From Phoronis australis (Eukaryota; Animalia; Phoronida): DNA of 64,000 nt. Where the stretch lies: NCBI GenBank assembly GCA_002633005.1, contig NMRA01000329.1, forward strand, positions 209,219 to 273,218, written 5' to 3'. Shown here one piece after another: positions 524 to 23,961 of this stretch. The position numbers and the translations under genes were made by a program. The stretch's first letter is position 1; each line of letters starts with the position of its first letter. The notes beneath the pieces were generated by a model. That model saw only the letters and a program-made list of their open reading frames with translations. It did no database searches and was not told where the DNA came from.

Positions 524-792
524 GTTGACTGACTAGTAAATGAAAGCGAACGACGACGGAACTTAACACAACCGAGGTAGAACAATGACTGACTCGGCAG
601 CTCTCACAGTCAGACTATGTGAAAAGAAATTGGCGGGAAGCGCTTGCCTCCTAAAACGTCACTTCCGGAAAAGCGGACGAATAATTAATAAAATTACGAA
701 AAGCTGTAATTAAGTGAAAAATATGTCTAGGATAACCAACCAACCTTATTTAAGCTCAAAATGACATGGAAAAAGGTTGCCTTCGCCTTTAA
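1..792 (-). mobile_element. Left end of Kolobok-like DNA transposon
   Basis: Minus strand reads TTAA|AGGCGAAGGCAACC (TTAA at 789-792), about 265 bp upstream of the THAP ORF. TTAA target, purine-purine terminus and THAP domain are Kolobok hallmarks. The other end is not visible. Confidence 0.55.
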
Positions 793-2291: not shown

Positions 2292-2477
2292 TTTTGACGT
2301 GCACAGTTCCAACACCAAACTTCTGCACCAGAAATACAAACAAAACAACAGTGAAAGTGAACACAATTGTAAGTTTCACATGTGATGCGGGATACGAGTT
2401 TCCCAATCTCAGCACAACTATAAACTCCACGTGTATTGGTCATGAAATGTGGTCGACAGATGTACGTAATTGTACAG
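2292..2477 (+). CDS. Sushi-like exon A1
   Basis: ttgtag|..LTCTVPTPNFC..FTCDAGYEFP..STCIGHEMWSTDVRNCT|gtaagc; 186 bp. Confidence 0.85.
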
Positions 2478-5400
2478 GTAAGCAAACCACTTTTTATGTG
2501 TTGGTGAGCAAAGTGAAAATAAATCATTTCTAGAATGTTTTGTATCTTCTAATTGCAGTACAAATTAGTTCTTTCTGCTCATTAGAATATTGAATTTGTC
2601 AGATTTTCGCGGATGGAAGTTGCACTTCTTGGCAGTAAACTCCAGGCCCATGAGAGAGAAGTTCGATGTTTAAAATAATTGGCGTATAACTATAGAAGGC
2701 CGTATGAAAAAAATGCTAAACTTCAAAATCTTTTGCATTGAATTGTGCAACTCACATTTTCAGTCGACAAGACATATATAGATCCAATACAAAACTCAAG
2801 CACGACAACCTCGATCTATACCACATTCGACGACAACTCAGTTGTAAGCTTCGAATGTGATGTTGGCTACCAGCTGCCCGATAACACCACTTCGATAAAG
2901 TCTACGTGCGATAGACGTGAAACGTTGTCGACGACCGTCGATATTTGCACAAGTAAGTATGGCATGCCCGGCTTCACGAAGAGCAAATCCTTACAGCCAC
3001 AGACTATTCGCATGTATACAATTTATTACATGTATATCTAGCTTTCTATTCGAATATGCTCAAAGTAAATGCTGCTTGGAAGACATAAACGGTCATATAT
3101 CTCATCAAGCCCATACCTTTCACCAAATTACTTTTCATCACTTCTAGCCCCACGTCAAGCAGTTTCAGCACTGGCGCCAGCGTAAAGCAATTACTTCATT
3201 TCTTGAACTTTGTGTTCTAACAACAGTTGATAATTTCACACATAGCTTCACAAACTGCCAATTACATGTACATTTCAAAGTTATTGTTATCCTGCACGGT
3301 GTCTTTTCTCCTTTTTTCAAATAAAACAATCTGTCACTTGAAATTTGTGTAGTGCAGGAAACAATCTTGAGTGTATGAACAGTACAGGGATCAAAATTGT
3401 ATACTAACCCCTTCAGTATATTTGTTTGAATCCACACTACACCAAAGTTCTATATTTTCATGAATACTAAATGACAGTGAAAATCCTAGTAAGATCTAAT
3501 GGCCGGTTAATTTCAAATGCTCCCAATTGTCCTAGGGTCTGTTTCATGAAAAGTGAATAGCACAAAAATTTGGTCTTGGGATCCCAATTCACAGTTGATG
3601 AATAAAGGTTGAAATTTTAATTATTGTCACATGGAGATTTTACAAATAATATAATACAGATTGTGGCAGTGCTTAAAAGTGACGTTCTGTTATCAGAGAC
3701 TTTGTATTTAACTAAAGTGAGATTTAGAGATTTAGTTACTCTCTTTACAAATAGTTGTGTCACATGTAAATGACCAAATTTAGGACAGAACTTCTATGTC
3801 ACTTTTCCTGAAACAGAGCGCTGGTTCTCATGATGTGTACGAACTAGAACCATAGCCAGGTTCGTATCATTCTAAATGCAAATAATTTAGGTCCTGTTGT
3901 TTCTGTTGTCTTTTGCTAAAGGTCATCGCGTAAAAACGACATGTAAAGTTCCGGCCCTGGACTACAGTACCAAAAACAATGAGAACTATACAATCAACAT
4001 GTATACGACTGTAAGTTTTAACTGTGATGGCGGCCTCAAGTTTCTCGATCACAACACGGCAGTCATGTCTGCTTGTGGAGAGCAGGAATTATGGTCGACC
4101 ACTGTAAACTCTTGTAAAAGTAAGTTACCTCAGGCATATCCCACTGAGCACCTTGACTATTAACGTGAAAGTTCTCAATTAAATCAAGACGCCTATATGC
4201 ACGATGAGACAGGCGTTAAAAAAGCATTTTAACCGTGCTTTGAATACGTACTCGACGAACAGAAGATCAAGAATGGTCGTTATTCACGTTTACATTTTAT
4301 TTTAATCATCGATTGGATTTCTGAAGTTTTAGTCATAACATGCTCAGTTCCAATACCGGACTTCTGCACCACTGAGAAACACCGGCTAGTCTGGGATCTT
4401 ACAAGACGTTTTCCCGATCACAACGACATTTACACTCGCAACAGTCCTATCAGTTACAGCGGCATGTCGATGCTTCTTTTTGGTCATGAGGGATGAGAAC
4501 TCCAACCAATGTGAAAGTTGTCTTCATTTATCTTTCAGTTGTTTTCTGCTAAAGTCATTGCTAACCAAATGTGACTATTTTAGTTATGACTTGCGCATCT
4601 TCGACACTAGATGTCACCCTCAGAAACATCGATACCATCACAGTCAACGTTAACACTACTGTACGATTCACGTGTGGCTACGACGATGGGCTTCCTGAAC
4701 GCAAAATCACGGTAACGTCTACAGGAACTGGGTGGGGAACATGGGCGAAGGATGTTGAAAATTGTACAAGTAAGTTTATTTGAAATTCTCACTAATAATG
4801 CTAAGCAATGAATCTTAAACTGTATTTTGAAAACGTTGAATAGCGAACATATCAAATAGAGATACGTCAGGCTACAGTGTAATTACAACTTTTTTAAAAT
4901 GCTATTACATTTCTTCAGCATGTTTGATGTATTCCACTGTCTGTACTTTGCATCAGTCATTAAACCGAGTTTCTGTAATTTTTAGTCATAGCATGCACAG
5001 TTCCAACAGCGGATAACAGTACCATATACAGAGGAAAAGCATCAGTGAGCGTGAATACAGGTGTAAGTTTAGTATGTGATGGTGAACATGAGGTGTCCCA
5101 TCATAACAACACTATAAACTCCACGTGTACTGGGCAAGAAACATGGTCGTCGGCTGCTGGTCAATGTATACGTAAGTCGTATTGTAAATATAGAGTGCTC
5201 GAAAGCGAGGCTTTTGTTTCATCAGCCATAGAGTGTTTACTGGGGTAAATATAAATTGGTGAGCTGATATTGCAGCACTTGCCGGCCTGCGGAAACAATT
5301 TCAACTTAATCCTGTAGCCTCGTATTACGAAACTCCAGACAACCACTCCTAATTTCCAGTTAAATGCACGTCCCAAAAATATTTCTTTCGCGGTGGCCAA

Positions 5401-8400
5401 ACTGCATGCTGTCAAATATCCTGGAAACCAAACCCTTTGAGTTATCTATAAAAACAGGCAACACAGCGGTGCAAACCGTACTGCAACTACATTGTATTCA
5501 TACAAGATGCATATCTGCGTACCATTGCAGAGGAACAGTAACAGATTGTAATGACTTAGATGTCCCGGGTGACATGCACAACTAATAACAAATGATAGCT
5601 CTTCTTAATTATTACTTAGACATTTTGGTGATACCACAGTTGAGGCCTTCTCTGGAATTCTGGAAAACTCAGTGGTTTACTTTGATGTCATCACTGACTC
5701 ATTTACCGACACAAACCAAACCTTGATGAATACTTTTTATCAAGACTGCTCCATTGATTACAGTCCCTACACGGCAGAACCTTTATTAAGTAGCAATCAG
5801 TGAGTCTCAGACTTTACAAAATGCGTTTGAATTATTACGCATCACATTTTAACATCGCTTCGTTCTGTCAAAAAGCAACAATTTATTTCGATCAATAACC
5901 GTGATAAAGTGGTTTCACATTAACCTTCACTCAGTCTAAAACTGATGTCTGGAATTGGAAAACTGACTATTCGTTATTGTTTCAGACCAGGCTCTACAAT
6001 CCTTAGGTCATATTGTGAACGTTTTTGCTTCGAGACCGAAAATTTAAGATTCTGGGATGTTGGATTTGTTTAGCCTATTCAATGTAACCATTTTCACTTC
6101 TGACACACATGCACATGATTGTATTATAGGAAGAAATTCATTCAGTTTTGGAAGCCTATATACTCGACCTCGGAAAAAAGGTGTTCTCGATACGAAGACA
6201 TTGTTTGCAGCCGTTTAAGTTATTGCGATTTCTCACATGACCTGGAATGTGTTACGACACGACTGGTTAATATCACAAAGTAGTGCAAAGTAGAAATCCA
6301 AGCGCCTTACATTTTATCGTCTGCAAAACACTGAAACAACCAAACGCGGGCCAACCAAACAATGCCGGAATTTCGTGAAGGTGAGAAGGTTATGATTGAC
6401 AAATCGGGTATCACGACTGTACGTACTCCCATTTAGAAGGACATGCAAACAACATTGTTAAACGGACCCATCTTCGGCGGCGAATTCTATATCCGCGTTT
6501 ATTCAAACGGTGACGAGCCCAAAGACAAGAAACGCGACGAGACTGTCTAGATGTGCTGTCTCAGGGTCAATTCCGTCCTCACGCGCACGGAGGCCATGGT
6601 GCCTGTTGTTTATAATTATTAAAAAGAGTAAATGGATTACTTGACAATGCACAAGCGTGTATTTACAAAAGTTGCGTCTTGTAGTTGACAGATCTAGACA
6701 CGTCGAGTTTTTTCAGCTAGACGATCGTTCTTACAGTTCATTTGAGAAGACAAGTCCTGCACTCGTCNCCCCCCTCTGCGCTCTTCAATACATGTACACT
6801 ATGCCGGCCAACCTAGACCTAACAAGCGCTTTTAAGCAGTTGACATTGGACGAAGTCTTCTACCGTTTACTGCACATGTATACGAGCCGTAGCCTTTTAG
6901 GACGTATACGACTAACCTTTTGGATTAAAACTGCTCCATCCATCTTCCAAGCGACAACATTGTTTCTGGAATAGACCATGGGCCCGTTCCAACGAAACTG
7001 ACTTAGCAAAGACAAATCTTACATTTTTGTAAATTTTAAAATAAAAATTAAATTTGTCTCACAACCAATTCAAGAAAGAGATCTTAAATTTGTTTTAAGT
7101 GTTTGACATAAGTTTTGTCTTAATTTTGACTTACTTGCCTAATGTGGAAGTTTCAAAGTTTGGAAGTTAAGACAAATGTTCAACTTAAAACAAAAATAAA
7201 CTTAAGTCTGTCTCTTGGAACAGGCCCAGTGTCTTATAATGTTACATTGACGACGTTTTGGTTATCATTGAGTCTTCCGAGCAACACGTGGCCAATTCGG
7301 ATGAGGTATTTTCGCGCCTTAGCAAACGCAACGCACAACTCTATAAGAAGTTTATGCAGACGGAGATCCAGTTTATTGGACATATGCTGAATCAAAAGGG
7401 CATCCAACCTCTTATGGATAAGCTTGCTGTTGTTTTGCAGGCTCCTTCCCCTAACGATGTGTATCAGTTAAATCTAGTACTCGGTATGACTAATTTTTAT
7501 GGAAATTGCATTCCTAAACTATCCACGCTCCTTCAGACGTTGTATTCTCTATGTAACCGTCACAAATTTGAAGACATCTATATCGTTTTCGCCGATTTTG
7601 TCATGAATTTTGTAATTGTAGCTTTGACGTGCACAGTTCCAACACCAAACTTCTGCACCAGAAATACAAACAAAACAACAGTGAATGTGAACACAACTGT
7701 AAGTTTCACATGTGATGCGGGATACGAGTTTCCCGATCACACCGCTCTTATCAGCTCCACTTGCATTGGTCATGAAATGTGGTCGAAAGATGTAAGTAAT
7801 TGCACAGGTAAGCAAACCTTTTTTACGTATAGACGGGCAATGTGAAAATACTTCATCTTTTAGAACGTTGTACATCTTCCAGTTGTAGTACAAAAAAGTT
7901 ATGTTATTTTTGTTCATCGGGATACTGAATTTGTCAGATTTTCACGAACAGGAAGTTGTTCTTCTAGTTTGGAAGTACACTCCAAGTCCAACATCGAGAA
8001 GTTGGTTGTTATCAATTCCTCGCCGCCGTGGGACACTTAATGTTTCTCGCCACACAGAGTTCCTATTCCAACACTCACATTTTGGGTTCTTCCAATCAAA
8101 GTGTGCCACCTCCTTCTTTCCACCTGATGTTTTATTCTTTGGGCGCCTTGGTATTGTTCCAAAGCAGAATTTTGCTTTCGTGTAAATATGATTGATAGTG
8201 CTGAAGCAGTGATAGTTGCAGATCGGGTCGTCATGAGAACATCAAGATCGTTACATTTTGCTCATGTTGTAAGTCACGTAAAACTAAAGGACGCTCATGA
8301 TTACGTTTTGCATTTTCGTATGAAAACAAATTAAAAGTACTATTTTGCATTAAATTGTGCAACTCACATTTTCAGTCTCCAAGACATACGTAGATCCAAT

Positions 8401-11400
8401 ACTGAGCTCAAGTATGACTACCTCGAAATTTACCACATTCGACGAGAACTCAGCTGTAAGATTCGCATGTGATGCTGCCCACGAGATGGCCAATAACCAC
8501 ACTTCGGTAAAGTCTACGTGCGGTGAACGTGAAACATTGTCGACAGGGGTCGATATTTGCACAAGTAAGTATGGCAGGCCTGGCTTCACGAAGGGCAAAA
8601 TATTACAACCACAGACTGTTCACATGTATACAATTTATTCTATTTGCCTCTTTTCCACATCCAGTCTCTCTATTCGAATACGTCCAAAGTAAATGTTATT
8701 TGGAAGACATAGACGGTCAAGAATCTCATCAATTCCGTACTTTCAACCAAATTACTTTTCGTCACTTCTAGTCCGACGTGCAGCACGATTTCAGCACTGG
8801 GGCCAGCGTAAAGCATCACTTCATTTCTTGAACTTGTGCTCTAAGAACATTTGATAATTTCACACATCTCTCCACAAAAAGCCAATTACATATTGTACAT
8901 GTACATTTCAGGGTTAATGTTATCCTTCATGATGTCCTTTCTTCTTTTGTCACATGTAACTTTTTGACTCGAAATTTGTGTTCAGCTGAAAACAAACTTG
9001 AGTGTATAAATAGCACAGGGATTAAAATTCATAACTTCATTCAGTATATTTTTTTAATTCAACACAGCATTAAAATGCTATATTTTCTTAGCTACTGATT
9101 GAAAGTGAAACTGGTAGTAAGATCTAATGACAATTCAAGAATTTGCCATCTAATGAAACGTTTATTTTTGGAATGCTCACATTTTTCCTCGGGTCTGTTT
9201 CAAGGAAAGTGACTTAGCACAAAAATTTGGTGGTAGGATCCCATTTCAAAATTGATGAATAAAGGTTAAAATTGTAATTATTGCCACACGACATCTTTAG
9301 AAATAATTTAATACAAATTGTCTCAGTACCTACAAGTGAAGTTCTGTGAACAGAGACTTTTTACTTTTGCTAAAGTGAGATTTAATAAATCCCCTTACAG
9401 ATTGTTGTGTGTAACTCGTAAAAGAGCACTTTGAAAATAAAGCTTCAAAATCACGACTTCAGGAGAAGAGTACTGGCCCTTGTTAAGTGTGCGAACTAGA
9501 ACCATTGCCAGGTTCGCATCATTCTAAATGCAAACGATTTAAGTCCTGTTGTGATATAATTTCTGTTGTCTTTTGTAAAAGATCATCGCGTAACAACGAC
9601 ATGTACAGTTCCGACCCTGGACTTCAGCACCAAAAACATAGAGAACTATATAGTCAACATGAACACGACTGTAAGTTTTGACTGTTATAACGGCTTCAGA
9701 TATCTATATCACGAAACAGCGGCCATGTCTACTTGTAGAGGGCAGGAAATATGGTCGACCACTGTAAACGCTTGTAAAAGTAAGTTACCTCAGGCATATT
9801 CCAATGATTATTTTGACTATTGAGGTGAAAGTTTTCATTTAATCAATGTAGTGAGGCGTTAAAGGGCATGTTAACCGTGCTTTGAATTCGTACTTGACCA
9901 GCAGTAGATCAAAAATAGTTTTTACGTTTTGATTTTATTTTAATCATCGAAAGGATTTCTCATGTTTCAGTGATGACCTACTCATTTCCAATACCGGACT
10001 GTGGAAGCACTGTGAAACACTGGCTGTTCTGTTATCTTGCAGGGCGTTCTCCCGATAACAAAATCGTTTACACTCGCAGCAGTCCTTTCAGTCAAAGCGG
10101 CATGTCGACGTTGCGTTTTTTGTCATTCCGGATGCGAATTCCAGCCCATGTGAAATCTGTCTTAATATTTCTTCCAGTAGTTTTCTTCTTAAGTCATTGC
10201 TTACCAAAATTTGACAAGATTCATCCTTGTGTTCATAATGTGGCTCGATGAATCAATGTTACTATTTTAGTTATGACATTTGCATCTCCGACACAAGACG
10301 TCACCCTCAGAAACATCGACAACATCATAGTCAGCATAAATACTACTGTACGATTCAAGTGCAACGACGACTACGGGCTACCCGAGCGCAAAATCAAGGT
10401 TATTTCTACCGGAACTGGGTGGGTAACATGGCCGAATGATGTTGAAAATTGTACAAGTAAGTAAGGAAATTTCAAATACTCATTAAAAATGTTAAGTAAT
10501 CACTCTCTAACGATTTTGAAAACATTGAAATGCGAACCATGTCAAATAGAGTTACGTCAAACTACAATGTAATTCCAACTTTTCCAAACTACTATAATTT
10601 TTTCAGCATGCTTGATTTAGTCCACGGTCTGTACGTTGCATCAGTCATTAAGCTGAGATTTCGTATTTTTTAGTCATGACATGCACAGTTCTAACACCGG
10701 AGTACAGTACCAAAAGCAGTGGAAAAGCATCAGTCAGCGTAAAAACAGCTGTAAGTTTAGTATGCGATGGTGGACATGAGGTGTCCAATCATAACAACAC
10801 CATGAACTCCACGTGTACTGGGCAAGAAACATGGTCAACTGATGCTCATCGATGTATAAGTAAGTTGTATTGCAAATATAGGTTTTTGCAAAGCGAGGCT
10901 TTTGTTCCGCGATCTTGAACAAACTTTCCATCAGTTATTTAATGTTCACTAAGCTAACTGTATATTGATGAGCTGATATGGCAACACTTCCCTTCCTGCG
11001 TAAACAATTCCAACATAAACACTGTACTAGTGGCTTCGTATTGCGAAACCCCAGACAAGCACTCCCAATTTCCAGTAACATACACGGCTCAACAAAATTT
11101 CGTTCACGGTGGCCAAACTCTGGTCAAGGGGAGCCATGCTAACAAAAATCCTGGCGTCCCATTAGTTTCAGAATTGTTGTTTTGAAATTTTGGTAATACC
11201 ACTGTAGAGACTCTTTCTGGTTTTCTGCAAAATTAGATTGACTTTGATATCATCAATGACTCAGTTACCACCACAAACCAAACGTTGTTGGAAGGTTTTT
11301 TACAGAGACTGCTATAAGTTATCCTTCGTTGATTACAGACCCTACATTTTTATTTATTTATTTATTGGGGACAAATAAAACAACAACAATAATGTATATT

Positions 11401-14400
11401 TTAAGTTGTATTGGGAATTTCAGGGTCACAGCTCTACAAATAAATATTTCACAGAAGGAACCAGATGGGTTCCTTAATTACAAGAGATAACACACACATT
11501 TCCGATACCCAAAGTACAATTGAGTATCGGATGCTAAGTGGCACAGGTTAGCAATAGTACCAAATGGGTACATAATACCAAATGGGTATTGGCCGATTGC
11601 CTACCAACTGGGTCGAGCAAAACGGCAATTTCAATAACAAGTACCAAGTGGGTACAAACTGCCAAATGGGCAAATATCATATAAAGTACCAAGTGGGTAC
11701 ACTAAACAGTCAACTGGGCTATAACAACCTGCAAAGCAGGGTTCCGGACAAGCTGAGTGAGCAGACCAGCCGGAGTGATAAAAAGAGATATTGTAAGGAA
11801 CGTGGTGTTGTGGCTCAGTATGTGCCGAGAGCTGTGACCGGGGTGGAGAGAAGCAAGCTGCAGTGATGGATGCTCGAGTACAGCCTCCCGTTCAGTAACG
11901 CTAGGACATCGCTAAAAAGCAAGACTTCGCGAGATTACGTGAGATATGGCCGTGTATTTTAAATGAGAGCATGTGACTTTGACTAGGTTTTAGCTAGGTC
12001 CTAGCGTAGGTCCTAGCGTCTACTGAACGCACGCCAGGTCGGGTCGTTAGCCAATGACGTCGGTTCTTGCCGGACGGTATCACGCTCCAGGCCTGAAGAA
12101 GGTACCAGCAGGGACTGCAAAAACAACAATAACCAACAGCAGATTTTGTTCGACAAAAGGGGGAGTGTGGGAAAGGTATCAATCGGTTGAGTGGAGATGT
12201 CGTGGTACCCAGGGTAAGGGAGGGTGGGAGGAGTATAAAATTGGCTAATTAGGAAAACTTACGAGTGAACGTACTGTTGCTTGTGGCTGGGCCAACAGGA
12301 AGCTGGAGAGAAAGAACAAACAGCGCTACCATCGGACTTGGTAGGAACTAACTAGGAGTTGGATATGAAGGATGAAGGGGTGTCTAATGTTATTTGCCCA
12401 AATAATAGGATTTAGCCTATGTCAGAGTGCCATAAATCTCATTATTTATTTTTATTTATTTATTTATTTATGTAATATTTACCATGAGGGTAGCCCCATC
12501 AGTTCACACTGCTTTCCATGGGGGCAGAATCTTTACTAAGTAAGTCTCAGAGTTCCATAAAATGCGTTTGAATTATTGCGCATCAAATTTTAACAGCACT
12601 GAACGCGTGTTTTCTGTCAAAAAAACAACTCTTTATTTCAATTAATAACCGTTATAAAATGGTTTCATTTCAACCCTCCCTCAGTCTAAAACTGACGTCT
12701 GGAATTGCAAAACTGACTGTTCGTTATTGATTCAGACCACGCTCAATAATGTTTAGGTCATAATGTGAACGCTTTTGATGTGAAACCGAAAATTTAATAT
12801 TATGGGACATTGAGTTTGTTTAGCCGATTCATTGTAACCATTTTCTCTTATGACATACATGTATGATTAGAAGAAACCGTTCAGTTTTGGAAGCGTATAT
12901 AATAAACCTAGGAAGAATTTTTTTTCGACACTAAGACATTGTTTGCAACGGTTTAAGTTTTTGTGATACATCATATCATAACTATAATTAAATAATTTTA
13001 AAGTAAGATATTTTCAACATGATGTTAAAATGGCTGTTTTCAGTGCTCTCACTCAAGACAACTAGGTAAAGAGTTCTCGGGTGTCTGAATGGGTGAAGCT
13101 TGAATTGAGTTTTCAACTAAGCTTTTGGTAGTCCCAGGAGGTGCCGCTCATTCTCCAGTCCCTATCAATACTTCCGTGAGAGTGCCATTTAGAACGTTCC
13201 ATAAATTACCAGCCGCTGAACATGGAGCATGCGCAAATTGAAGAGATAAAACAGTGTGTCTGGAACTGGTTGTTCTAGTTCTTGAAGACAGTTGTAGTCA
13301 TGGTGAGAACTAATTTCATTCCTATGCGAACACTTTCTGACCTAAAGTGGTTACTGATTATTTTGCGCATGCCCATTTTTGATTGTCGAAGGAATTTAGG
13401 AAGTCAGATATTCGCCCTAATTAATCAAGTAGTAAGAGGTTCGAAACCCACGGCCAGGTTAGGCTTAATGTAGATACGTGCACGTGCGGATAGAAACTGT
13501 TACATCAGTCAGAAGTCGACTTTGCGTTTAGTTTAAAACGTGGCTGATATATAGTATGCTTTATGATTGTGGGTTGATGAAGATCGAATGATTAAAACCA
13601 GAAATTGATTTATTATTTAATATCCACTAATTAGTGAAAGTGAAAACTGCTGTTGATCGAGTAATCTAACATGTAGATGATAGAAACACAGTGGAGAATG
13701 AAGAAATGACTAACCAAAGAATCACAATTCACGATATTACATGGTACATGCATCGATACGTGGCACCCAATGATAGACATCAGAAGCTCGTGCTTAGGGC
13801 AATGCCTTAGAAACGCGGTCTTTTGTAGGGGTAAACATGTCAAATGCAAACCACCCCATCACCACTAAACCTCAGGAACCGAGTTGGTGTCATTCTGAAG
13901 AAAAATACTTCAACTTAATAATAATGTGAGGTAATACCATGTAGTCCTCGACAACCCTCAAACGTTTGGAGCAAAATCTGACAGTCCTTAGGAAGTCTGC
14001 TAAACGGGCAAGCTCAAACTAAGCTTTAGAGGAGTAGGACAACTGTAGGGAAAGTCCACCTACCCAGAACGATAGTAGGCCTGTCCAATCTGTGACACAG
14101 AGAGTTCTTAGTTGAATCCTGCTTTTATCACTCAAGTTGCACGCCAATCATGCATTAGCAGGTGACACAAGGAGGAGTGTTCGAAATCACCGAAACAAGG
14201 ATTGATATCCTTAAGTCACAGTGATTGGGTTGCAGCTTCTTTTAAATTACATTTGAAAACATGATAAAAACACCAACCTAGTTGTCCCTTCCATGTCTGC
14301 CTTCCAGGACAGGTGCGTTTCGTGTTTTTTTTTTCTGAAATCCAAAAGTGCAATATTATGAGGGCGTACTTGACTTTCCGAATCTACATGTATGTTTAGC

Positions 14401-17400
14401 CACCAGGACCATTGAAGAAGCAAAATTAAATGTAACAAAAATGGTTTGAAGTGCCCTCAATCATATTCTTATAAATAGCATATGACGATTCGTGGGTGAT
14501 TTAGTTGCTTTTTTTCAAATGGTCAGAAATTTGAAGATATCTGCCATGTTATCAGTGATCTTGTTATGAATTTTGTAATTGTAGTTTTGACGTGCACAGT
14601 TCCAATACCAAAATTCTGTACCAGAAATACTACGGAAACATTAGTAAACGTGAACATAACAGTTCGTTTCACATGTGAGGATGGCTACGAGTTTCCTGAT
14701 AACAGCACTGCTATTAGTTCCACGTGCATTGCGCATGAAAAATGGTCGATGGATGTAAATAATTGCTCAGGTGAGTAAGTCACGTTGTACATATAGGCGC
14801 ACCTGGTAAAAATGAATATAATTATTCTGAAACGTTTTGTAACTTCCAATTGCAGTGTGAATTAGTTAGTTCTACTTTTCAGGATATAAAGTTAGTCTGA
14901 TTTTCGCGAAAGTTAAGTCACCCTTCCTGGGCGTAAACTGCAGGCTCGTAAACCTAAAGTCAAATGATTCAAATCTGAACACGAAGTGCCCACTGAATTT
15001 GCAACTCTTTCTACTTCGGCCCACACAGCCTCTCGTTTAACCTCTCTTATCCCGTCAGGGCACTCGCATTTTGCCAATTTTTATTAAAATGTGTCGATTC
15101 TGTATTTTCAACAGGATTTTCTCTTAGAGTGCTTTGATATTGTCCCGGGGCAGAATTTTATTCTCACGTTAACCAGTCGTTGACGGTTGTGGAGAAGTGA
15201 CAGTTACATCTCGATTGGCAATCATTACAAGATCGTTAAACTTTGCAGTTAGTGTTGTGAAAGTGGACATAATTAGAATCAATCGTAAACATCGGGTTGA
15301 CGTCATGCAACTTTGCATGAGTTCAGGTGTTCTATGTTCAAACAGCTTTGCAATGAATCCTCGAACACACATTTTCCAGTCGCCAAGACAGATATTGCTC
15401 CAGTTCTGAATTCAAGCATTGTGAACACGGAAAATATCACAGTCAACGAGAACATAGCTGTGAAGTTCTCATGCGATACTCACAAGTTGCCCGACTACAA
15501 CACTACGGTAATGTCTACATGCGAGGAAAGTGAAACTTGGAGGATGGGAAACGATACTTGCAAAAGTAAGTTCGAAAAGTGAGTCCAGCTGCAATAAGAG
15601 CAAAGTTTTAGAACAGCCCACAGACTGTTCACAGCGGCACTTTATTTTACAGCATCTGCTGCCTTTCCGCAAACATCCTCTCGATTGGAGCATAACAAGA
15701 CTAAATGTTACTTGGAAGTCTTGAACTTTCCAAACAGGTTAGTTTCATCAGTTCTAGTCCAACGAAATAAACGACTTCTGCACTGGAGTGACCAAAACCA
15801 AAGGCTTCAGATACGTTATTACTTTCACACATTTTGGCAAAAGCGACAGTTCCATATCCATTTCAAGGTCAAGGTCATCCTTCGTGGAATCCTTTTAGGT
15901 TTCATTCTATAACTTCAGTGTTTCAGTGTGTGGAATTTTGTATCGTGCTTGAATCAGTGTGAACGGTTTAAGTGAGTTTATCGATAATACATGAACCGAA
16001 ATGTATACGCAGTATATTTGCTTTATTCTTCACAGTTCAGAGAACATCAAACAATTCTTCTTTCAGGAAAGTAAGTAGAAGTGAAGCCGCTAAGATGCGA
16101 GAATTCATTGTTTTCCGTTGAATAAAATGTTTTTAGAATGTACTTTGGAATGCTTGGGGTTCTGTCTCGTGAAAAGTGACTTAAGACAGAAAATGGTCTA
16201 ACGATCCAATTTCACAATTTCTGAACAAAGGTTTAACTTTTAATTAATTTTATATAACAACATTTAAAACGATTGATGCAAATTATCTCGGTAACTACAA
16301 GCAATGGATTTTTTCTCAGATCCCTTGTATTTTTGCTACAAAAGAGAGTTTAAGAGACAGTCTTTATAAAAACCAGTAGATTTTTAAAAATCCGCCTTTA
16401 CTTAAAATTCAAAATAGCTTCATTTTTGTTCAAAAATCTAAATGCCACATTTTGTGCAGTCACTGACTCCTAATTTCGCCGCTGAAGCATTAGACTGGCC
16501 GCAATTGGTCATATTAGCCGTCTCGAAAATTGTATGTTTTCAGCAACGAAAATATGTAACTTACCAAATAGATTGAAAGCTGTGCTTTGGTGGCTGGAAT
16601 AACCAATGAATAATGTCCATAATTATTGAATTTATTCAAATTTGACAGCTTTGTGCAACCAGGGGAGGTAATCCAAAGACCACTTTTCCTAGGACATTTT
16701 ACATTTTAGTTGATGTTTTTGTAACCCTTGTACCACCATATTGCATCTTGTAGCTTTATGTAACTTTTTGAACATACATCTTAAGAGTTAGTTGATAATC
16801 GAGCAAAAAATAACTTTACTCTACTTTATGTTCTAATGAAGATTGATGCGCACAGTTTGCAGACAATTGAAACGAAATTTGAACAAGAACTCTGCGTTAA
16901 ATTGTTATAAAAATCTAGCATAACCTTTCTCAAATGAAAATAAAAATTTTCCAAATGTATAGCGCGACCAATATCAAAACTGAACGTACGCGGTGACCTT
17001 TCCCCAGTGAGTCAGTTCCTATTAGGTTAGAGGACATATAAAAACTGAAGTGTACATGAAATTCTCTCGTTTTCTTCCATTACCATGTTAATTTAAACAC
17101 TCTTCAGAATTTTTAAATGGAAATAAATGACTTTGAATTTTGAACTCGTAAAAATTGTTATCTCTAAAAGACAGGTCCAGGGTATCTTGTGCTTAAAGAC
17201 AAACTGAGGAACTTCATTTAGAGGGTTTTCAACAAAAAGTGCGATCAGGAAAGCTTTGTGGCTTTGGTCAGTCTTGCTGGCCATTGCCACAGGATGAGCT
17301 CCTACTAGCCAGAGCAGGTAAATTTGTGACTGAGCAGGAGCAGTTGTGGAGCTAAATCTTTATGCGATGTTCACCGAAGAGAATTTGCTTTTCACCCAAG

Positions 17401-20400
17401 AAGAAAGTGTCTGTACCCTGAGCACCTGAAATGACAAGTACGTCCAGTGGCGTAGCGAGTATCTCATTGCTGACCGTCGACACCTCAAGTGGCACCTTAC
17501 CCCTCCATCCCGGCCACCTCGGTTGGTAGCTGAATAACCCCTCCCCCACCGTTAACAGATGCCTGGTGCCCCCTTGGACAACATCTGGAGGCACTTGACC
17601 CTCACTTGCTACGCCACAGAGGGAATCTCTCGGCATGCTTGAAATCCATATCGTTACTTCTCAGTGTTGAACTTTGACTACCCAATGTCTGTCGTGAACC
17701 GAGTCACTAATAAAATTTATTGTTTTCTATGGAACTTGAATGTCTGCCTCACTGTCATAATAAATATTCGATGTTGGGATGACCGGGGGGAGGGGGGTGC
17801 AAACGCGAATTTCTGGCCGTCGGTACGCGGTGGGGACTTAACTTTCTATCAACCTGCGGGGACATTGAACGCTAAACTACAATGAGTTTTGACTGAATTA
17901 AGGATCTTTTGCACTGAGCAGAGGGTCATAGCCTCCGTGGGTGTCGTCCATTCCTATGCCAGTGAATCACAATGAAGATAGATAACGAGAGCAGGGCAGA
18001 TTCGGCTTCTATTTGCTCCACAGCCTCCATGGAAACAAACAGCGACGCTATCTATCATATAGACGAAGCAAACACGCTACCTGTAGTCATAATTTATGAA
18101 CAAAACTTTGTAATAAGCAATAATCATCAGTGTGATTTCAGGCAATGTTAATTAGTAATGCTGTCTGCTTTTCTCTGAGATACAAGCTATTTAAGTCGTG
18201 TTTTGCAATCCCTGCTGGTGGTTCAGGCAACTGTGAAGAGGCAAATAGGACCAAGTACAGTTCGTTTAATGTTTTATAAGCAAAGACTACTGGAGAGGTG
18301 AAATTTTTCATTTTAGATTATGAACAGATTAGGGATGCCTGAACAAATTACTTTAAGGTCAGTTTTTGGAAAGGTGCAATATGGCTGCTACAGAGTGCCA
18401 AGTTTAGCCTAAAGTGTCTTCAGTGAAATTTTCTTTGCCACATAAAATCAAAAATACAAATTTGAAAGTGAATTTTGAAAGTTGTGCCAGTAAATTATTC
18501 AATCATTTTCCTTTCAAACCGTATTAGCCATTTGTTACCAGCTTACTACATGTATACATGCTAGTAAAATGCATTAAAATATGTCCAATTTCGCGCCAAG
18601 TTTTGTTGCAAAATGGAGGTACATGTCATGAGAAAAGAAATAAATTATTAAAAATCGAGATTTTTCTATACATGTATCTCACCGAACTTAACCGTGTGCT
18701 AAGTCTGTGATTTTGGGTATAGACTCTGCCTATTGGTTTTTATTCGAAGTCACTGGTAATTATTCTTCTGAGATCAGTAATGTGGAACTTTACGTCAAAT
18801 TTATGACTGAACTCTTAAGTTATTTTTCATGATACCGAGCACTGGTGCGAAGTTGAACCATAACCAGTTTCGAAAACACAAACGATTTAGGTCCTGCTGT
18901 TTCAGAATTGTTGTTTTGTTTACAGAAAGTCATCGTGTAGGAATGACATGCACAGTTCCAACACCAGACTTCAGCACCGAAAACGATGAGAACTCCGAAG
19001 TCAATATGAACACGAATACAAGTTTCACTTGTGATGGTGGCTTCAAGTTTCTCGATCACAACACCACGATAATGTCAACATGCACAGGGCAAGAAACCTC
19101 TTCGACTGATGTAAACACTTGTACAAGTAAGTTACTTCACGTACATGTATGTCCCGCAGATCAACTTGGCCACTGAAATGAACGTTTACGATTAAATCAA
19201 TGTTGTGCGCATGAGTAGGGCGTTGGGGTGCATTAAAGATGTGCTTTGAATGCGTATTCGACAAACGGGCGATCTAATTAGAATTCAAACATTTCTATAA
19301 TGCTATAATGATATTGGCATTTACATTTTATTTTAATCCGACGTTACAGTCATTCTAGATCAAGGGTCGAAATTATCGATGAGGATACATTCTAGCTGAT
19401 GACAGCACTCGGAGACGCAGCACACAACAACTGTGTTTTAGGTAATTCAACATCTATACATACAGGAAAAGGCTGGAAGACAACCTGGAAAGGCAGGTGA
19501 CGACCTGGAGAGACAGTGGATTGGTTGGGTTAGCAACCCATCTAGTTGATATCTACATTCCTGCAAGTAACCAAAGAAAAATACGAAGACGACATGGCAA
19601 AGTACAAAGACTACGACATTGATAAACGATGACTGAGTATGCAGAGGATGTAAGAGGACATTTAAGAATTTCATGGTGGTAAGAATCCATCAGGAAAAGA
19701 CAAAGTGTCTCCAGCGGCAACGCTTAGGTGGTGCTACTAGTACTCCTAGTAAGACGATTGAAGATGATAGCCAGGGTAAAACCCACAGAGCGTCGATCTC
19801 CAAAGGCCATGGAGCAATGGAGGTAGCAAGTAAGTACGTTGCATCAGAGGTTGAACACTACGGCACGGCACCAGATTCAGACATGTCAAGCAGGCACGGT
19901 GTTGAAGTATTTACATCTGGCAGGGAGGAGCAGGACTCAGAGTTTGTGTTACTTTCCATGTCACAATTGCTTACAGAAACTGGTGAGGATCGGGATTAAG
20001 ACAGCATTCCGAGGCAATGAACTGAAGCACTATTTGAGATGGCAGCGAAGGAGCGGATTTCTTGGGCAAGAGGCAATGACTCGAAGTCCTGGAGTCTTCT
20101 GGATGAGGATCTTGATGGTGTTTTAGAGGCAAATGTGAAGGGGACTGCACAGAAGAAACTGATCACTATGACTGAGCTGGTCTACCACTTTGCAAAGATC
20201 GATTTGGTGTGGCGGCGAAGAGGTATAATGCAACCGCGCATGGGCCTAGCAGAAAACAGAGGGAAATTAAGGAGATCCGGGTGAAGCTGAGAGACCTTAA
20301 AAGGCAGTGGAAGAGAGCTGAGTGTGATGAAAGGAGAGGTTTAGCCCATTTAAGACAGGAGCTGAGGTGAAAAGTTTTATCTTTGTGCAAGGCAAAGCAG

Positions 20401-23400
20401 CGTAGAAAGACCAGGACCGAAAAGATCAGGAAGAGGAAGTAATCTGTGTCCAATCCATACAAGTTCACGAAAGAGCTTTTTGGGAAAGAGGTAAGTGGGA
20501 AGCTCAGATGCTCTAAGGAGGAGCTGGAGAGACATCTGGAGGAGGTTCACTGTGACACTGATTGCGAGGAACCTCTGGAACATTTGTCAGGATGAATGAA
20601 GAGGAATTTCCAAGTGTACCTTTGGAGGTTGGCGATTTTAGGTTCTGTGATGTCAGGAAGATGGTCATGAACACTAAGCCGGGGTCAGCTCCAGACCCAT
20701 CCGGGCTACCTTACATCGTGTATAAGAAGTTCCCAAAGTTATTACACCGCCTTTGGAAGCTGTAGAGAGAGATTTGGGGCGTTGCCTTGGAGATGGTGAA
20801 AGGCGGGAGGGGTGTACATTCCAAAAGGCAAAGGTGCAGTGAAAATCGGTGATTTCCGTCTTATCTCGTTATTGGATGTGGAGGGGAAAGTCTTTTTCGC
20901 TGTGCTGGCAGACAAGCTGACGACATATTTGTTGGAGAACAGTTACACCAGGCCCTCAGTGCGGAAGGGAGGCATTCCTGGCTACTCTGGTTGTTTATAA
21001 CACAACTGTGTGATCACGGAGTTAATCAAGGATGCAAAGAAATTAAAGAAAGACCTGTCGGTGATATGACTTGACATGGCTAATGCATATGAGTCGATGT
21101 CACGCAAGCTTATAGAGAAGGCGATGTGTATGTATCATTTGCCGGAAGATCTGCGTTCTCTCATCGGCAAATACTTCACAGGAGCAAGAATGAGATTCTC
21201 AGTTAATGGTTTTACAACGGAGTGGCAACCTTTACAGAATGGGATTAATTCAGTGTGCACAATTTCTATAATTCTGTTTGTGATGGCCATGAATTTTATG
21301 ATAAAGCGAGCAACCAAAGATTGGAGGGGACCTTTATTGCAGAACAAGTGTCTACCAAGTTGCCGTGCATATTTGGATGATCTCACAGTTACGGCATTGG
21401 GGGCGGACCGGTAGCAAAATCAAGGAGTTTAGTGCTGTTTCAAGGGAAGATTAACACCCATTTCGCTTTTAAGGTGGATGAAGACGTGATACCTTCGGTG
21501 TTTACACAAATCACGTCTGGGTAAAGATTATGACAGCACATTGAAGGCACATTGAAGGCCAGAGACCATGTAAAAGCGGCGCCGGAAAGTATACAGGAAA
21601 ATCAACGTAAGGTCGGTAATGGTGGATTACCTGGTCGCTTTAAGGTGTGGTGTTACCAGATTGGACTATTCCCAAAGGCCATGTGGCCTTTGACAGTGTG
21701 AGATCTACCTATTACAGCAGCGCAGAGAATGGAGCGCTGGGTCAGCCGCTGGTCGCGGAAGTGGTGAGGCATCCCCCCAAGTTTCACCAGGCTGGGCATG
21801 TACATAAATGTACATGAGGTGTTCAGCAGTAAACCTACCTACACGATCTATTGCAGAAGAGTCTAAAGTCATTAAGTGCAGCACTTTCCTGACTTTGAGG
21901 GACTCGAAAGATGAAGATATCAGTGATGTAAAGATTGGCGTTTTTTTCTGGAAGAAAGTGGAGTCCAGAGGAGGAAGTACAGTAGCATCAGAAGACAGCA
22001 AGATTCACCATAAAGATTTAGTTGGGGCAGTTTCCAGAGGACGTGAAGGCCTTGGCATGAGATCGTTTAAGAGGAAAAGACAACTAGAGGGAAAGATTGC
22101 CGTTCTAGTGTATTAGACGAAGTACGTCACCAGGAAAAGAAGAAGCGCTTTTCTCATGCTATAGGCTTGAGAAAGCAGGGCACTGGCAAAACATGGGAAG
22201 GAGTTCACAGTAAGAGCATTACAGCGAATGACCTAATTTCATGTGATCAGTATAAATTAAGATTTCTCATGCGTTCTGTCTATGGCGTACTCCCTAATCC
22301 GACAAACTTGAAGTTGTGGAGAAAGATAGAAGACGATTTTTGCGGCAGTTGTGGGGAGCGCTGCTCTTTACAGCACGTTTTGTTATCTTGAAAGTCGGTT
22401 TTGGCGGAAGGCAAAAACAATTGGAGACATGATAAGATTCTCAAGGCGATTGCTCATATTTTAGACCTAGAAAGAAGGAAGGCGGTTAGCAACAGTGACA
22501 GTCCGCTAATATCATTTTGCAGAGAAGGTGCATCTGGGAAGAGGGAAGGTGCAGGTGTATTGACTACATCGAGTGATTGGAAGACAGTTGTGGATGTAGG
22601 ACCATTGGCGGTATTCCCGAGCCATATAGTGATGAAGACACTCCGCCCTGACTTGGTGTTTTGGTCAGATGGTACAAAGTCGGTCATCATATAGTGTAGC
22701 AGAACTTAATGTACCTTGGGAATCCCGAGTGGTCCAACGAGGTGATAAGGCTTAAGTATGCAGAACTTTCCCATAATTGTTCGGTAGCTGGTTGGAAGTG
22801 CAATTGTTTTTGTATGCCAGTTGAAGTAGGATGTAGAGGTTTCAGCGGGAACAGCATATGGAGGTTGATGAAGTTCCTAGGTATCAGCACAGTGTCAAAG
22901 GAGAATTTGGTGCAGACAGTGATTCAAGTGATGACCGCGCCTTATCAACTTCGGGGACCTGGCATCCGAGATGATTCTAGATCATGGGTCGAAACTATCT
23001 ATGAGGATGCATTCTAGCTGATGACAGCACTTGGAGAAGCAGCACACAACAACTGTGTTTCAGGTAATTTTAGTCCAATGCCGGATCTTGACCCCAGAAT
23101 CATTGACTGGTGTAGAATCTTGCGATACGTTGTGCCGTGCCGATCACAGTTTCCGATGCACAGCCGTTAAACTTTCGTTACCGTTCTCCTTGTCTCAACA
23201 GTATGTAGACATTGTTTTCTTGGTTACCCCGGATGGAATCTCTGTTTATGTTCACGCCGTCTTCATTTTTTCAGTTTCTCGTTTTTTCTACAAAATGGCG
23301 CAGTCAGTCTTATTTTGACAGATTCACTTTTCTTTTCATATTGTTACAATTTTAGGTATGACTTGTCCAGCTCCAACACCAAACATCCACACCGGAGACA

Positions 23401-23961
23401 CTGAGAACGTCACAGTCAACGTGAACACAACTGCAAGATTCAAGTGCAATGCCGACTACCAGCTTTACGATCACAAAATCAGGGTAATATCTACTTGGAC
23501 CGGACGGGGGACATGGTCGACAGATGTTAAAAATTGTACAAGTAAGTGACTAATACAAGGCTATTGGAAATTCTGAAAAAAAAACTTTAAGTTGAATCAG
23601 TGTTTGGCAATTTTGAAAACTTGTAAAACGATCGCATTTCAAATAAAACTACTGAAGGACGTGATGTAATTCTAAATTTCCAAAATGTTATTGTAATGGA
23701 GTTTAGTTTGTTTCAAATGTATTTCACGGTTGCCACGTCACGTTAGTCATAAAACCTGAGTTCCCCTATTTTTAGTCAAAATATGCACAGCTGCAACACC
23801 GGTGTACAGCACCAGAAAGACTGAGAAGTCAGCATTCAACGTGAGCTCTGCTGTAATTTTCACTTGTGATTCTGGATATGAGTTGTCCGACCATAACAGC
23901 ACGATGAACTCCACGTGTACAGGGCAAGAAACATGGTCAGCTGTTGCTCATCGATGTATAC
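2292..23961 (+). CDS. Multi-exon sushi/CCP(SCR)-like domain array, 15 exons in 3 duplicated 5-exon cassettes; gene ends not identified
   Basis: 15 stop-free exons of 186/189 bp, all ending at GTRAG donors in phase 1-1. Consensus xTCxVP..N.TV.F.CD.GY.FPD..T...STC.G.E.WS..V..C fits the CCP C-C-C-W-C pattern. Confidence 0.8.
2764..2952 (+). CDS. Sushi-like exon B1 (lacks Cys1 and Trp)
   Basis: tttcag|..DKTYIDP..FECDVGYQLPD..STCDRRETLS..ICT|gtaagt; 189 bp. Confidence 0.75.
3922..4119 (+). CDS. Sushi-like exon C1 (uses upstream AAG acceptor; ancestral start 3934)
   Basis: TTCKVPALD..FNCDGGLKF..SACGEQELWS..SCK|gtaagt. Confidence 0.7.
4584..4769 (+). CDS. Sushi-like exon D1 (Cys3->Gly)
   Basis: ttttag|..MTCASS..FTCGYDDGLP..STGTGWGTW..NCT|gtaagt; 186 bp. 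Confidence 0.75.
4986..5171 (+). CDS. Sushi-like exon E1
   Basis: ttttag|..IACTVPT..LVCDGEHE..STCTGQETWS..QCI|gtaagt; 186 bp. Confidence 0.8.
6560..7551 (+). mobile_element. Decayed Ty3/Gypsy reverse-transcriptase fragment
   Basis: LDLTSAFKQL, RLTFWIKTAPSIFQ, YIDD (7243-7254), FIGH..KGIQP, LGMTNFY..IPKLS match Gypsy RT motifs. Interrupted by a MITE, with one N at 6768. Left boundary approximate. Confidence 0.8.
6979..7228. mobile_element. MITE (GGGCC termini, PIF/Harbinger-like) inserted in the Gypsy RT
   Basis: TIRs TGGGCCCGTTCCAA / TTGGAACAGGCCCA around an AT-rich interior. The RT frame resumes just after, at CYIDD. Confidence 0.7.
7622..7807 (+). CDS. Sushi-like exon A2
   Basis: Near-copy of A1; ttgtag| ... 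|gtaagc; 186 bp. Confidence 0.85.
8376..8564 (+). CDS. Sushi-like exon B2 (lacks Cys1 and Trp)
   Basis: Paralogue of B1; tttcag| ... |gtaagt; 189 bp. Confidence 0.75.
9582..9779 (+). CDS. Sushi-like exon C2 (upstream AAG acceptor; ancestral start 9594)
   Basis: TTCTVPTLDF..FDCYNGFRY..STCRGQEIWS..ACK|gtaagt. Confidence 0.7.
10271..10456 (+). CDS. Sushi-like exon D2 (Cys1->Phe, Cys3->Gly)
   Basis: ttttag|..MTFASP..FKCNDDYGLP..STGTGWVTW..NCT|gtaagt; 186 bp. Confidence 0.75.
10674..10859 (+). CDS. Sushi-like exon E2
   Basis: ttttag|..MTCTVLTP..LVCDGGHE..STCTGQETWS..RCI|gtaagt; 186 bp. Confidence 0.8.
11347..12522 (-). mobile_element. Insertion with two (TAAA)n tails; probably stacked 5'-truncated non-LTR 3' ends
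   Basis: Absent from the paralogous site in unit 1 (ccctacacggcagaa, about 5764-5778). (TTTA)n runs at about 11347 and 12441. No recognisable ORF. Confidence 0.5.
14585..14770 (+). CDS. Sushi-like exon A3
   Basis: ttgtag|..LTCTVPIPKFC..FTCEDGYEFP..STCIAHEKWS..NCS|gtgagt; 186 bp. Confidence 0.85.
15380..15565 (+). CDS. Sushi-like exon B3 (lacks Cys1)
   Basis: ttccag|..AKTDIAP..FSCDTHKLPD..STCEESETW..TCK|gtaagt; 186 bp. Confidence 0.75.
16354..18814. mobile_element. TTAA-flanked non-autonomous DNA element (GAG..CTC ends; Kolobok- or Sola3-like)
   Basis: TTAA|GAGACAGTC ... GACTGAACTC|TTAA. About 2.5 kb that is absent from the B-C intron of units 1 and 2. Confidence 0.5.
17445..17619. mobile_element. 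Small MITE (CAGTGGCGTAGC type)
   Basis: TIRs CAGTGGCGTAGCGAGT / ACTTGCTACGCCACAG; no clear TSD. Confidence 0.65.
18941..19126 (+). CDS. Sushi-like exon C3
   Basis: gtgtag|..MTCTVPTPDF..FTCDGGFKF..STCTGQETSS..TCT|gtaagt; 186 bp. Confidence 0.8.
19352..19447 (+). repeat. 96-bp direct repeat, 5' copy (partner 22974-23069)
   Basis: ATTCTAGATCA...GGTCGAAA...GCTGATGACAGC...AGGTAATT occurs at both element ends, with about 7 substitutions. Confidence 0.9.
22974..23069 (+). repeat. 96-bp direct repeat, 3' copy
   Basis: Partner of 19352-19447. Confidence 0.9.
23356..23541 (+). CDS. Sushi-like exon D3 (Cys3->Trp)
   Basis: ttttag|..MTCPAPTP..FKCNADYQL..STWTGRGTWS..NCT|gtaagt; 186 bp. Confidence 0.75.
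23776..23961 (+). CDS. Sushi-like exon E3
   Basis: ttttag|..KICTAATP..FTCDSGYEL..STCTGQETWS..RCI|gtaagt; 186 bp. Confidence 0.8.

What the first reader, a model, noticed from the sequence alone, without database searches (positions are those of the whole stretch)
2292..23961. Modular array of 15 interchangeable phase 1-1 sushi-like exons in triplicated cassettes: candidate diversified surface/immune protein system
Seen: one domain per exon, all 186/189 bp, stop-free and with GTRAG donors, arranged (A-B-C-x-D-E)x3. Introns have taken up at least four transposon insertions while exon length and frame stayed intact, implying selection, yet paralogous domains differ at many residues. Known: CCP arrays form complement regulators and invertebrate allorecognition/immune receptors, and symmetric exons can be skipped without frameshift. 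Inference: any exon subset gives an in-frame product, so the locus could yield combinatorial or mutually exclusive isoforms, or copy-number-variable alleles. Nothing in the DNA alone proves alternative splicing.
Basis: partly seen in the sequence, partly recalled or inferred. Interest (0 to 1): 0.8.

Follow-up and report, generated by a model that had tools for sequence, protein, structure and literature searches.

The report
Triplicated five-exon sushi repeat block
An invertebrate gene region carries 15 one-exon sushi modules made by copying a five-exon block twice; their reading frames are preserved but show no sign of diversifying selection, so this is likely an ordinary repeat stalk of a sugar-coated extracellular protein, built like human complement receptor 1, rather than a splice-shuffled immune receptor.

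Summary
The array is real. There are 15 phase 1-1 sushi (CCP) exons, all with GTRAG donors, in five clades A-E that each branch ((1,2),3). Two corrections: C1 and C2 are 198 nt, not 186/189, and 'x' is a dead sushi exon.

Reading frames are under purifying selection. Cassettes 1 and 2 differ by no frameshift where intron rates predict 13.6, and 0 of 3000 neutral simulations kept the exons intact. Residues drift fast (dN/dS 0.55-0.77) with no positive selection. Six of 15 domains have lost the Cys1-Cys3 disulfide, and N-glycosylation sequons are enriched (37 against 20 shuffled).

RNA from the same species label shows very low transcription. No splice joint was listed; depth arithmetic fits one read pair spliced in order A-B2-C2. 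Reads under 90% alike show spliced sushi-to-sushi paralogues outside the window. I found no intact signal-peptide or membrane exon, no barrier to joint inclusion and no docking/selector pairing. No exon skipping was seen, but coverage was too thin to exclude it.

Best reading: a CR1-like repeat stalk of a lineage-specific glycoprotein family. This scan noted a similar array in another genome (e1-7857037). New member of a known kind; low interest.

The parts
2292..2477 (+). Exon A1, sushi, 186 nt; 4 Cys + Trp + one extra Cys
   Evidence: (23.1 bits, cut-off 20.7)
2764..2952 (+). Exon B1, 189 nt; lacks Cys1 and Trp
3922..4119 (+). Exon C1, 198 nt (no AG at the 186-nt position)
4333..4495 (+). 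x1, decayed sushi exon (end approximate)
4584..4769 (+). Exon D1, 186 nt; lacks Cys3
4986..5171 (+). Exon E1, 186 nt
6240..7540 (+). Degenerate retroelement fragment (RT remnant) at the cassette 1/2 junction, where block Y is missing (ends approximate)
   Evidence: RVT_1 E 9e-4, under cut-off
7622..7807 (+). Exon A2, 186 nt
8376..8564 (+). Exon B2, 189 nt; lacks Cys1 and Trp; covered by one inferred spliced read pair
9582..9779 (+). Exon C2, 198 nt; read depth fits the 9582 acceptor
9971..10160 (+). x2, decayed sushi exon (end approximate)
10271..10456 (+). Exon D2, 186 nt; lacks Cys1 and Cys3
10674..10859 (+). Exon E2, 186 nt
11340..12520 (.). Interspersed repeat insertion, very high RNA depth from other copies (ends approximate)
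14585..14770 (+). Exon A3, 186 nt
15380..15565 (+). Exon B3, 186 nt; lacks Cys1
16357..18796 (.). Insertion in the B3-C3 intron, absent from cassettes 1 and 2 (ends approximate)
18941..19126 (+). Exon C3, 186 nt (or 201 nt from the acceptor at 18926); Trp replaced by Ser
19352..23069 (+). Degenerate RT-bearing element between 96-bp direct repeats (93% identical), inserted at the x3 position
23356..23541 (+). Exon D3, 186 nt; lacks Cys3
23776..23961 (+). Exon E3, 186 nt; last sushi exon in the window
1450..2215 (+). Blocks X1 and Y1 upstream of A1, part of the older duplicated unit; Y may be a relic first exon (in-frame stop, no GT donor at the aligned place)
5773..6238 (+). Block X2 (78% to X3, about 60% to X1)
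12523..13385 (+). Blocks X3 and Y3; Y3 has a GT donor after a short hydrophobic frame that has no in-frame ATG

Best explanation
The 15 exons are likely spliced in order into the repeat stalk of one extracellular, heavily N-glycosylated sushi protein whose ends lie outside the window or were not recognised. Shown: single-exon duplication first gave A, B, C, x, D and E. The block was then duplicated twice, an older event separating cassette 3 (dS about 0.5) and a younger one giving cassettes 1 and 2 (dS about 0.2). x died, transposons entered the introns, and frames and splice sites were kept while residues drifted. Inferred: unequal crossing-over as the mechanism; constitutive in-order inclusion; and a spacer role in which length, an open frame, the Cys2-Cys4 core and N-glycans matter more than surface sequence. 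Any variation between individuals would most likely be block copy number, as in CR1, not combinatorial splicing. The protein belongs to a family with other spliced members elsewhere in this species.
For: Tree of five clades each ((1,2),3). No frameshift in 5 exon pairs against 13.6 expected from 36 non-triplet gaps in 2466 aligned intron bases. 0 of 3000 neutral simulations keep all 15 exons, or the 10 younger ones, intact. Omega 0.64-0.77 by codon models, below 1 with likelihood-ratio statistics of 5-15, and no site class above 1. Cys2 and Cys4 are invariant in 15 of 15. 37 sequons against 20.3 in shuffles, 0 of 5000 as high, and 2.5 per domain against 0.93 in 683 database sushi stretches (copies share ancestry, so the test is not independent). 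In run X2, depth of 69+173 nt on B2 and 47 nt on C2 with none in the flanking introns fits one 2x151 pair spliced A-B2-C2 (my arithmetic, one molecule). Three different foreign sushi exon ends are spliced in phase 1 to A/E-like exons and match nothing in the window. Cassette 2 has no Y block, so its conserved exons most simply depend on an upstream start.
Against: No splice joint reached the 3-read threshold, and none of the 15 of 25 joints shown is at an exon boundary. Some of the own-locus reads are intronic. No E1-A2 or E2-A3 junction was seen, so one gene is not shown. No intact signal-peptide, membrane or terminal exon was found by my simple scans. Six domains lost a disulfide, which could be decay. 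The spacer role is inferred only from the selection pattern and sequons.
Confidence: 0.6

Rival explanations
1. The cassettes are tandem paralogous genes of five sushi domains each. X-Y would be promoter plus first exon, and some copies have since lost that exon.
For: The older duplicated unit includes non-sushi DNA upstream of A (X and Y; Y1 against Y3 scores 172, shuffles at most 79). Y3 ends in a hydrophobic phase-1 frame with a GT donor, and Y1 aligns to it. The longest introns apart from insertions lie between cassettes. Paralogues exist elsewhere.
Against: Y1 has an in-frame stop and no GT at the aligned donor, Y3 has no in-frame ATG, and cassette 2 has no Y. Y is no better conserved than introns. 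No reads at 90% or more lie on the bins holding Y1 or Y3. No terminal exon repeats after all three E exons.
Confidence: 0.15
2. One reading: a combinatorial or mutually exclusive splicing system that diversifies a surface or immune receptor.
For: All exons are symmetric, so any subset is in frame, and x was lost without harm. Domains are 39-84% identical within a type. Sushi-containing invertebrate receptors with variable splicing exist (Botryllus FF, PMC12582321 passages). Earlier notes report other duplicated-exon splicing arrays in this genome (unchecked).
Against: No positive selection. No steric or frame barrier to joint inclusion. No recurring intron pairing. The one inferred molecule is in order. 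In FF genes the skipped exons lie between the sushi and membrane domains, not among sushi copies (PMC12582321). Fifteen of 15 exons keep their frame, as expected if they are obligatory.
Confidence: 0.1
3. A recently silenced or dying copy of an expressed family: the frames are intact only because decay began lately.
For: Omega for the younger split is 0.77, 95% interval 0.52-1.19. Cys and Trp losses. Only 13, 2 and 0 reads at 95% or more on cassette 2 among 11-13 million records per run, partly intronic. No intact first or last exon found. The spliced foreign exon ends look more canonical.
Against: No frameshift or stop limits any neutral phase to about a fifth of the time since the younger duplication (3/13.6). 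Most Cys losses are shared by all three cassettes, so they predate the duplications. One pair appears correctly spliced.
Confidence: 0.12

Closest known systems
Human complement receptor 1 (CR1/CD35), long homologous repeats and the LCR1 copy-number variant (PMC3265835, passages read)
   Same: An ectodomain of tandem 60-70 aa sushi repeats grouped into larger duplicated blocks; block duplication or deletion inside the coding region changes protein length.
   Different: CR1 blocks are 18-kb near-identical repeats with known C3b/C4b sites and a membrane anchor. Here blocks are about 4 kb before insertions, 15-28% diverged in exons, with five live domains each. No orthology, ligand, anchor or copy-number allele is shown.
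Invertebrate multi-sushi proteins annotated SVEP1-like, CSMD-like or P-selectin-like (amphioxus XP_078687161.1, XP_019630654.1, KAI8498131.1; clam XP_060599172.1)
   Same: Long tandem sushi arrays. Some unnamed hits share the GYxFPD motif of the central strands. 331 proteins matched at E<=0.001.
   Different: Best per-domain identities are only about 26-50%, so these are shared-domain matches, not orthologues. They carry about 0.9 sequons per domain, and many carry lectin, EGF, VWA or other domains not found here.
Ciona vCRL1 (PMC9265791, passages read)
   Same: A polymorphic invertebrate sushi-domain protein first proposed as a recognition factor.
   Different: Knock-down and genetics showed a blood-system role and no role in self/nonself recognition at fertilisation. 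This is a caution against reading immune specificity from variable sushi domains. Polymorphism is untested here.
Botryllus fester family (FF) and FcoR (PMC12582321, passages read)
   Same: Sushi-containing, alternatively spliced invertebrate surface receptors with copy-number variation.
   Different: They have one sushi domain plus Ig domains and membrane helices, and the spliced exons are not sushi copies. None of those features is found here.
Dscam1-type mutually exclusive exon clusters (recalled, no paper read)
   Same: Tandemly duplicated homologous exons in one locus.
   Different: Here whole multi-exon blocks with their introns were duplicated, no docking/selector pairing was found, and nothing prevents joint inclusion.

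Membership tests
Sushi/CCP domain (PF00084) | Profile match | tested here: met
   11 of 15 at E<=1, best 5.1e-8, A1 above the gathering cut-off; profile hits factor H, CD55 and MASP-1 in PDB; Atlas Sushi clusters at 0.96 for A2 and 0.95 for D2
Sushi/CCP domain (PF00084) | Four Cys (1-3, 2-4) and a Trp before Cys4 (pattern recalled) | tested here: inconclusive
   Met in 8 of 15; Cys2 and Cys4 in 15 of 15; six B and D domains lack Cys1 or Cys3; Trp missing in B1, B2, C3
Sushi/CCP domain (PF00084) | Beta-sandwich fold | tested here: inconclusive
   AlphaFold2 on the 15-row alignment gave pLDDT 36, unusable; no fold search was run
Class 1-1 mobile module array | One domain per exon between phase 1 introns | tested here: met
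   foreign paralogue junctions are also phase 1
CR1-like block-repeat array | Multi-domain block duplicated with its introns | tested here: met
CR1-like block-repeat array | Blocks joined in one transcript | tested here: inconclusive
   No E-to-A junction seen; coverage a handful of reads
CR1-like block-repeat array | Block copy-number alleles in the population | not testable with these tools
   No genome held; no DNA run was listed
RCA complement regulators (CR1, factor H, CD55) | Orthology and C3b/C4b binding | not testable with these tools
   Only weak shared-domain similarity; binding needs an assay
Mutually exclusive exon cluster (Dscam1 type) | A barrier to joint inclusion (frame, very short intron, or competing RNA pairing) | tested here: not met
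   Symmetric exons, introns 216 nt or longer; no recurring pairing among the 25 longest of 130 inverted repeats (the other 105 were not shown)
Mutually exclusive exon cluster (Dscam1 type) | Transcripts carrying one variant at a time | tested here: inconclusive
   One inferred pair holds B2 and C2 together; no skipping joint listed
Invertebrate allorecognition or immune receptor | Positive selection or hypervariable sites | tested here: not met
   M1a against M2a ratio 0 under two frequency models, 15 paralogues, 62 codons, limited power
Invertebrate allorecognition or immune receptor | Membrane anchor and signalling tail | tested here: inconclusive
   No membrane-like phase-1 exon after E1, E2 or E3 up to 29690 by a hydropathy scan
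Invertebrate allorecognition or immune receptor | High allelic polymorphism tied to recognition | not testable with these tools
   Needs population and functional data

The most novel reading that the evidence does not exclude
A lineage-specific, multi-locus family of glycan-dense sushi arrays that are shedding their Cys1-Cys3 disulfide uses exon skipping and block copy number to give each animal or cell type a different surface coat, a sushi-only counterpart of fester or Dscam diversity in a spiralian.
Probability: 0.1. Interest if true: 0.65.

Novelty: new member of a known kind. Interest (0 to 1): 0.22.

Why it matters
It is a clear record of how repeat proteins grow: exon duplication, block duplication, death of one exon, an acceptor shift and disulfide loss, all with the frame kept. 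The kind of array is well known (CR1; many invertebrate multi-sushi proteins; a sushi-gene expansion is reported in an annelid, PMC6862839, one passage read). No close relative was found in the protein searches, and spliced paralogues exist, so it marks an undescribed lineage-specific family. It would matter more only if long reads showed real exon-subset diversity or copy-number polymorphism tied to recognition.

Tried and rejected
No whole genome is held, so upstream DNA and the paralogous loci could not be read. The run search listed no RNA holder of the stretch; the four runs came by species label only, and X4 gave only repeat matches.

AlphaFold2 on the exon alignment failed (pLDDT 36), so no fold search was run. 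The word-index protein search with the exon profile gave 3 weak amphioxus hits among 7993 scored candidates. The CABIT frame gave none.

Blocks F1/F2 (5620-5799, 11167-11340) and y1/y2 (after E) looked by eye like further decayed sushi exons but did not beat shuffles at DNA level. F1 was borderline as protein (25 of 500 shuffles) and had no Pfam match; rejected as unproven. The y1 protein test used the wrong frame and is not counted. No homology was found between DNA upstream of X1 and F, or between DNA after E3 and after E1/E2.

Assembly artefact was rejected: cassettes are 76% identical or less over exons and introns, against 93-94% for the duplicate at 32-39 kb. Splicing into the downstream CABIT gene was rejected as unlikely because that gene has its own in-frame ATG at 26854 (sequence). 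A search for CR1 with 'unequal crossing' returned no paper. I make no claim that this family is absent from print; seven searches were run. The supplementary table behind the annelid sushi expansion was not seen.
Full report
Observation. A scan for open phase 1-1 exons and DNA and protein profiles built from them find exactly 15 full sushi-like exons on the + strand between 2292 and 23961 and none elsewhere in the window. All 15 donors are GTRAG. Thirteen are 186 or 189 nt. C1 and C2 have AA at the position of the 186-nt acceptor and an in-frame AG 12 nt upstream behind a good pyrimidine tract, giving 198 nt. Pfam Sushi matches 11 of 15, the profile finds factor H, CD55 and MASP-1 among solved structures, and the ESM Atlas places both a canonical exon (A2) and the most degenerate one (D2) with Sushi clusters. 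The structure prediction failed, so the fold rests on these sequence matches.

History. A tree of the 15 exons gives five clades with support 97-100, each branching ((1,2),3). Self-comparison shows introns duplicated with the exons: 2701-5403 matches 8317-11119 at 76%. So single exons duplicated first, and the block then duplicated twice. The x position is a sixth, dead sushi exon: x1 and x2 beat all 200 shuffles against the live exons, x3 does not and is interrupted by an RT-bearing element. The older unit also holds non-sushi blocks X and Y upstream of A. X2 and X3 are 78% alike but about 60% to X1, and Y exists only before A1 and A3. This fits a younger unequal crossover within or near Y, where a retroelement remnant now sits; that step is inferred. 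Five insertions are visible: about 6240-7540, 11340-12520, 13450-14480, 16357-18796 and 19352-23069.

Selection. Between cassettes 1 and 2, six aligned non-coding segments have 36 non-triplet gaps in 2466 bases, predicting 13.6 frameshifts in five exon pairs; there are none. With substitutions alone at intron-like rates, 0 of 3000 simulations kept all 15 exons, or the 10 younger ones, free of stops and splice-site loss. Residues are only weakly constrained. Pooled dN/dS is 0.77 (0.52-1.19) for cassettes 1-2, 0.61 (0.44-0.85) for 1-3 and 0.55 (0.39-0.79) for 2-3. Codon models over all 15 give 0.64-0.77, better than omega = 1 by likelihood-ratio statistics of 5-15. My own M1a/M2a site-model test found no class above 1 under either frequency model; with 62 codons its power is limited. 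Cys2 and Cys4 are invariant. Cys1 is missing in all B exons and Cys3 in all D exons, so those losses predate the block duplications. N-glycosylation sequons number 37 against 20.3 in shuffles, 2.5 per domain against 0.93 in database sushi stretches; the copies share ancestry, so this overstates significance.

Expression. No RNA holder was listed; three raw RNA runs and one contig set came by species label. About 18-19% of each raw run was read. On 1200-16000 at 90% likeness, repeats took nearly all reads; array bins had depth 0-1.5, almost all with the first mate on the minus strand, which in usual stranded libraries means sense RNA. Of 25 joints, 15 were shown and none is at an exon boundary. 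On cassette 2 alone at 80%, 13 of 99, 2 of 78 and 0 of 198 laid reads were 95% or more alike, and no joint reached three reads. Some X1 reads lie in the B2-C2 intron or cross the x2 acceptor. In X2, depth equals 69 and 173 bases in the two B2 bins and 47 bases at the start of C2, with none in the flanking intron bins. This fits one 2x151 pair: a read with 13 unlaid bases plus the CAG shared by the A exon end, then B2; and a read with 104 bases of B2 and 47 of C2 starting at 9582. The split (about 30 bases beyond 9598) fits the 198-nt acceptor and not the others. This is arithmetic on one molecule, not a listed joint. Reads mostly under 90% alike pile on A2 and E2; on A2 they stop at the exon end. 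They carry loose ends that translate as three different sushi C-termini joined in phase 1. None matches the window with up to 3 mismatches, so spliced paralogues exist elsewhere in this species. DNA from 16001 to 24000 (C3, D3, E3) was not covered by either lay.

Gene ends and neighbours. Simple scans found no membrane-like phase-1 exon after any E exon and no intact signal-peptide exon before any A exon. Y resembles a broken first exon in both copies, but is no better conserved than introns. The window begins in a THAP-domain frame, so the gene may start upstream. Downstream lies a separate CABIT gene, then BTB/zinc-finger and RING-variant genes. The last has named best hits in gastropods at 55-57% and unnamed hits at up to 64%, which suggests a spiralian invertebrate but not which group.

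Mechanism. The most likely reading (0.6) is a constitutively spliced, N-glycosylated sushi stalk. An open frame in every copy with near-neutral surfaces is what an obligatory spacer would show. For the last, symmetry permits skipping but is the ordinary state of class 1-1 modules, which are prone to tandem duplication (PMC3927616, passages). Introns are 216 nt or longer, and no pairing recurs across cassettes among the 25 longest of 130 inverted repeats.

Comparison. It is built like CR1, whose sushi ectodomain comes in duplicated blocks with copy-number alleles (PMC3265835, passages), but membership of the complement regulators is not shown. The database search gave 331 multi-sushi proteins, none closer than about 50% in a domain; nine of ten looked up carry names, mostly from amphioxus. 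Ciona vCRL1, a variable sushi protein, proved not to act in self/nonself recognition at fertilisation (PMC9265791, passages). Botryllus FF genes skip exons between the sushi and membrane domains rather than sushi copies (PMC12582321, passages). A sushi-gene expansion is reported in a tubeworm (PMC6862839, one passage; its supplementary table was not seen).

Verdict. Observation largely right, interpretation only partly. New member of a known kind, interest 0.22. The boldest reading not excluded, an exon-skipping and copy-number surface code in a multi-locus family, has probability about 0.1.

Noticed in passing
window 26854-27094, 29692-31853 (+): CABIT-domain gene (Pfam PF12736, E 3e-8), GAREM/THEMIS-like by recall. 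Its long last coding stretch is split into two overlapping frames (29692-30828 and 30753-31853), so there is a frameshift, a small intron or an assembly error near 30760-30830. The C-terminus looks SAM-like by eye but had no Pfam match.
   Followed up: partly
window 32365-34880 and 36080-38703: Direct duplicate at 93-94% with an identical 68-bp repeat at 36011 and 38700 and an N at 36080; probably both haplotypes placed in tandem by the assembler.
   Followed up: no
window 19352-23069: Degenerate RT-bearing element flanked by unusually long 96-bp direct repeats (93%); its C-terminal frames resemble a restriction-like endonuclease of non-LTR elements (recalled, no Pfam match).
   Followed up: partly
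window 11340-12520: Repeat with RNA depth in the hundreds; many reads skip a nested 154-bp piece at 11881-12034, so other copies lack it.
   Followed up: no
window 1-532 (-): Open THAP-domain frame running off the window edge; a transposon or THAP gene directly upstream of the array.
   Followed up: partly
window 39277-40419 and 43250-43930 (-): BTB plus C2H2 zinc-finger gene.
   Followed up: partly
window 50375-50639 and 51002-51280: Inverted repeat of about 270 bp at 90%, between the divergently oriented BTB-zinc-finger and RING-variant genes; likely a MITE.
   Followed up: no
window 61315-64000 (+): MARCH-type RING-variant ligase gene; used only to place the animal's broad group.
   Followed up: partly
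window 5621-5799 (+): F1 is a 180-nt open frame between AG and GT in phase 2-2, incompatible with the phase-1 exons; its copy F2 has a stop and no acceptor. Sparse reads lie in the bins around it. Unexplained.
   Followed up: partly
exons A1-A3, B1-B3, D1, D3: A exons carry a conserved fifth Cys while B and D carry an unpaired one; inter-domain or inter-chain disulfides are possible but untested.
   Followed up: no
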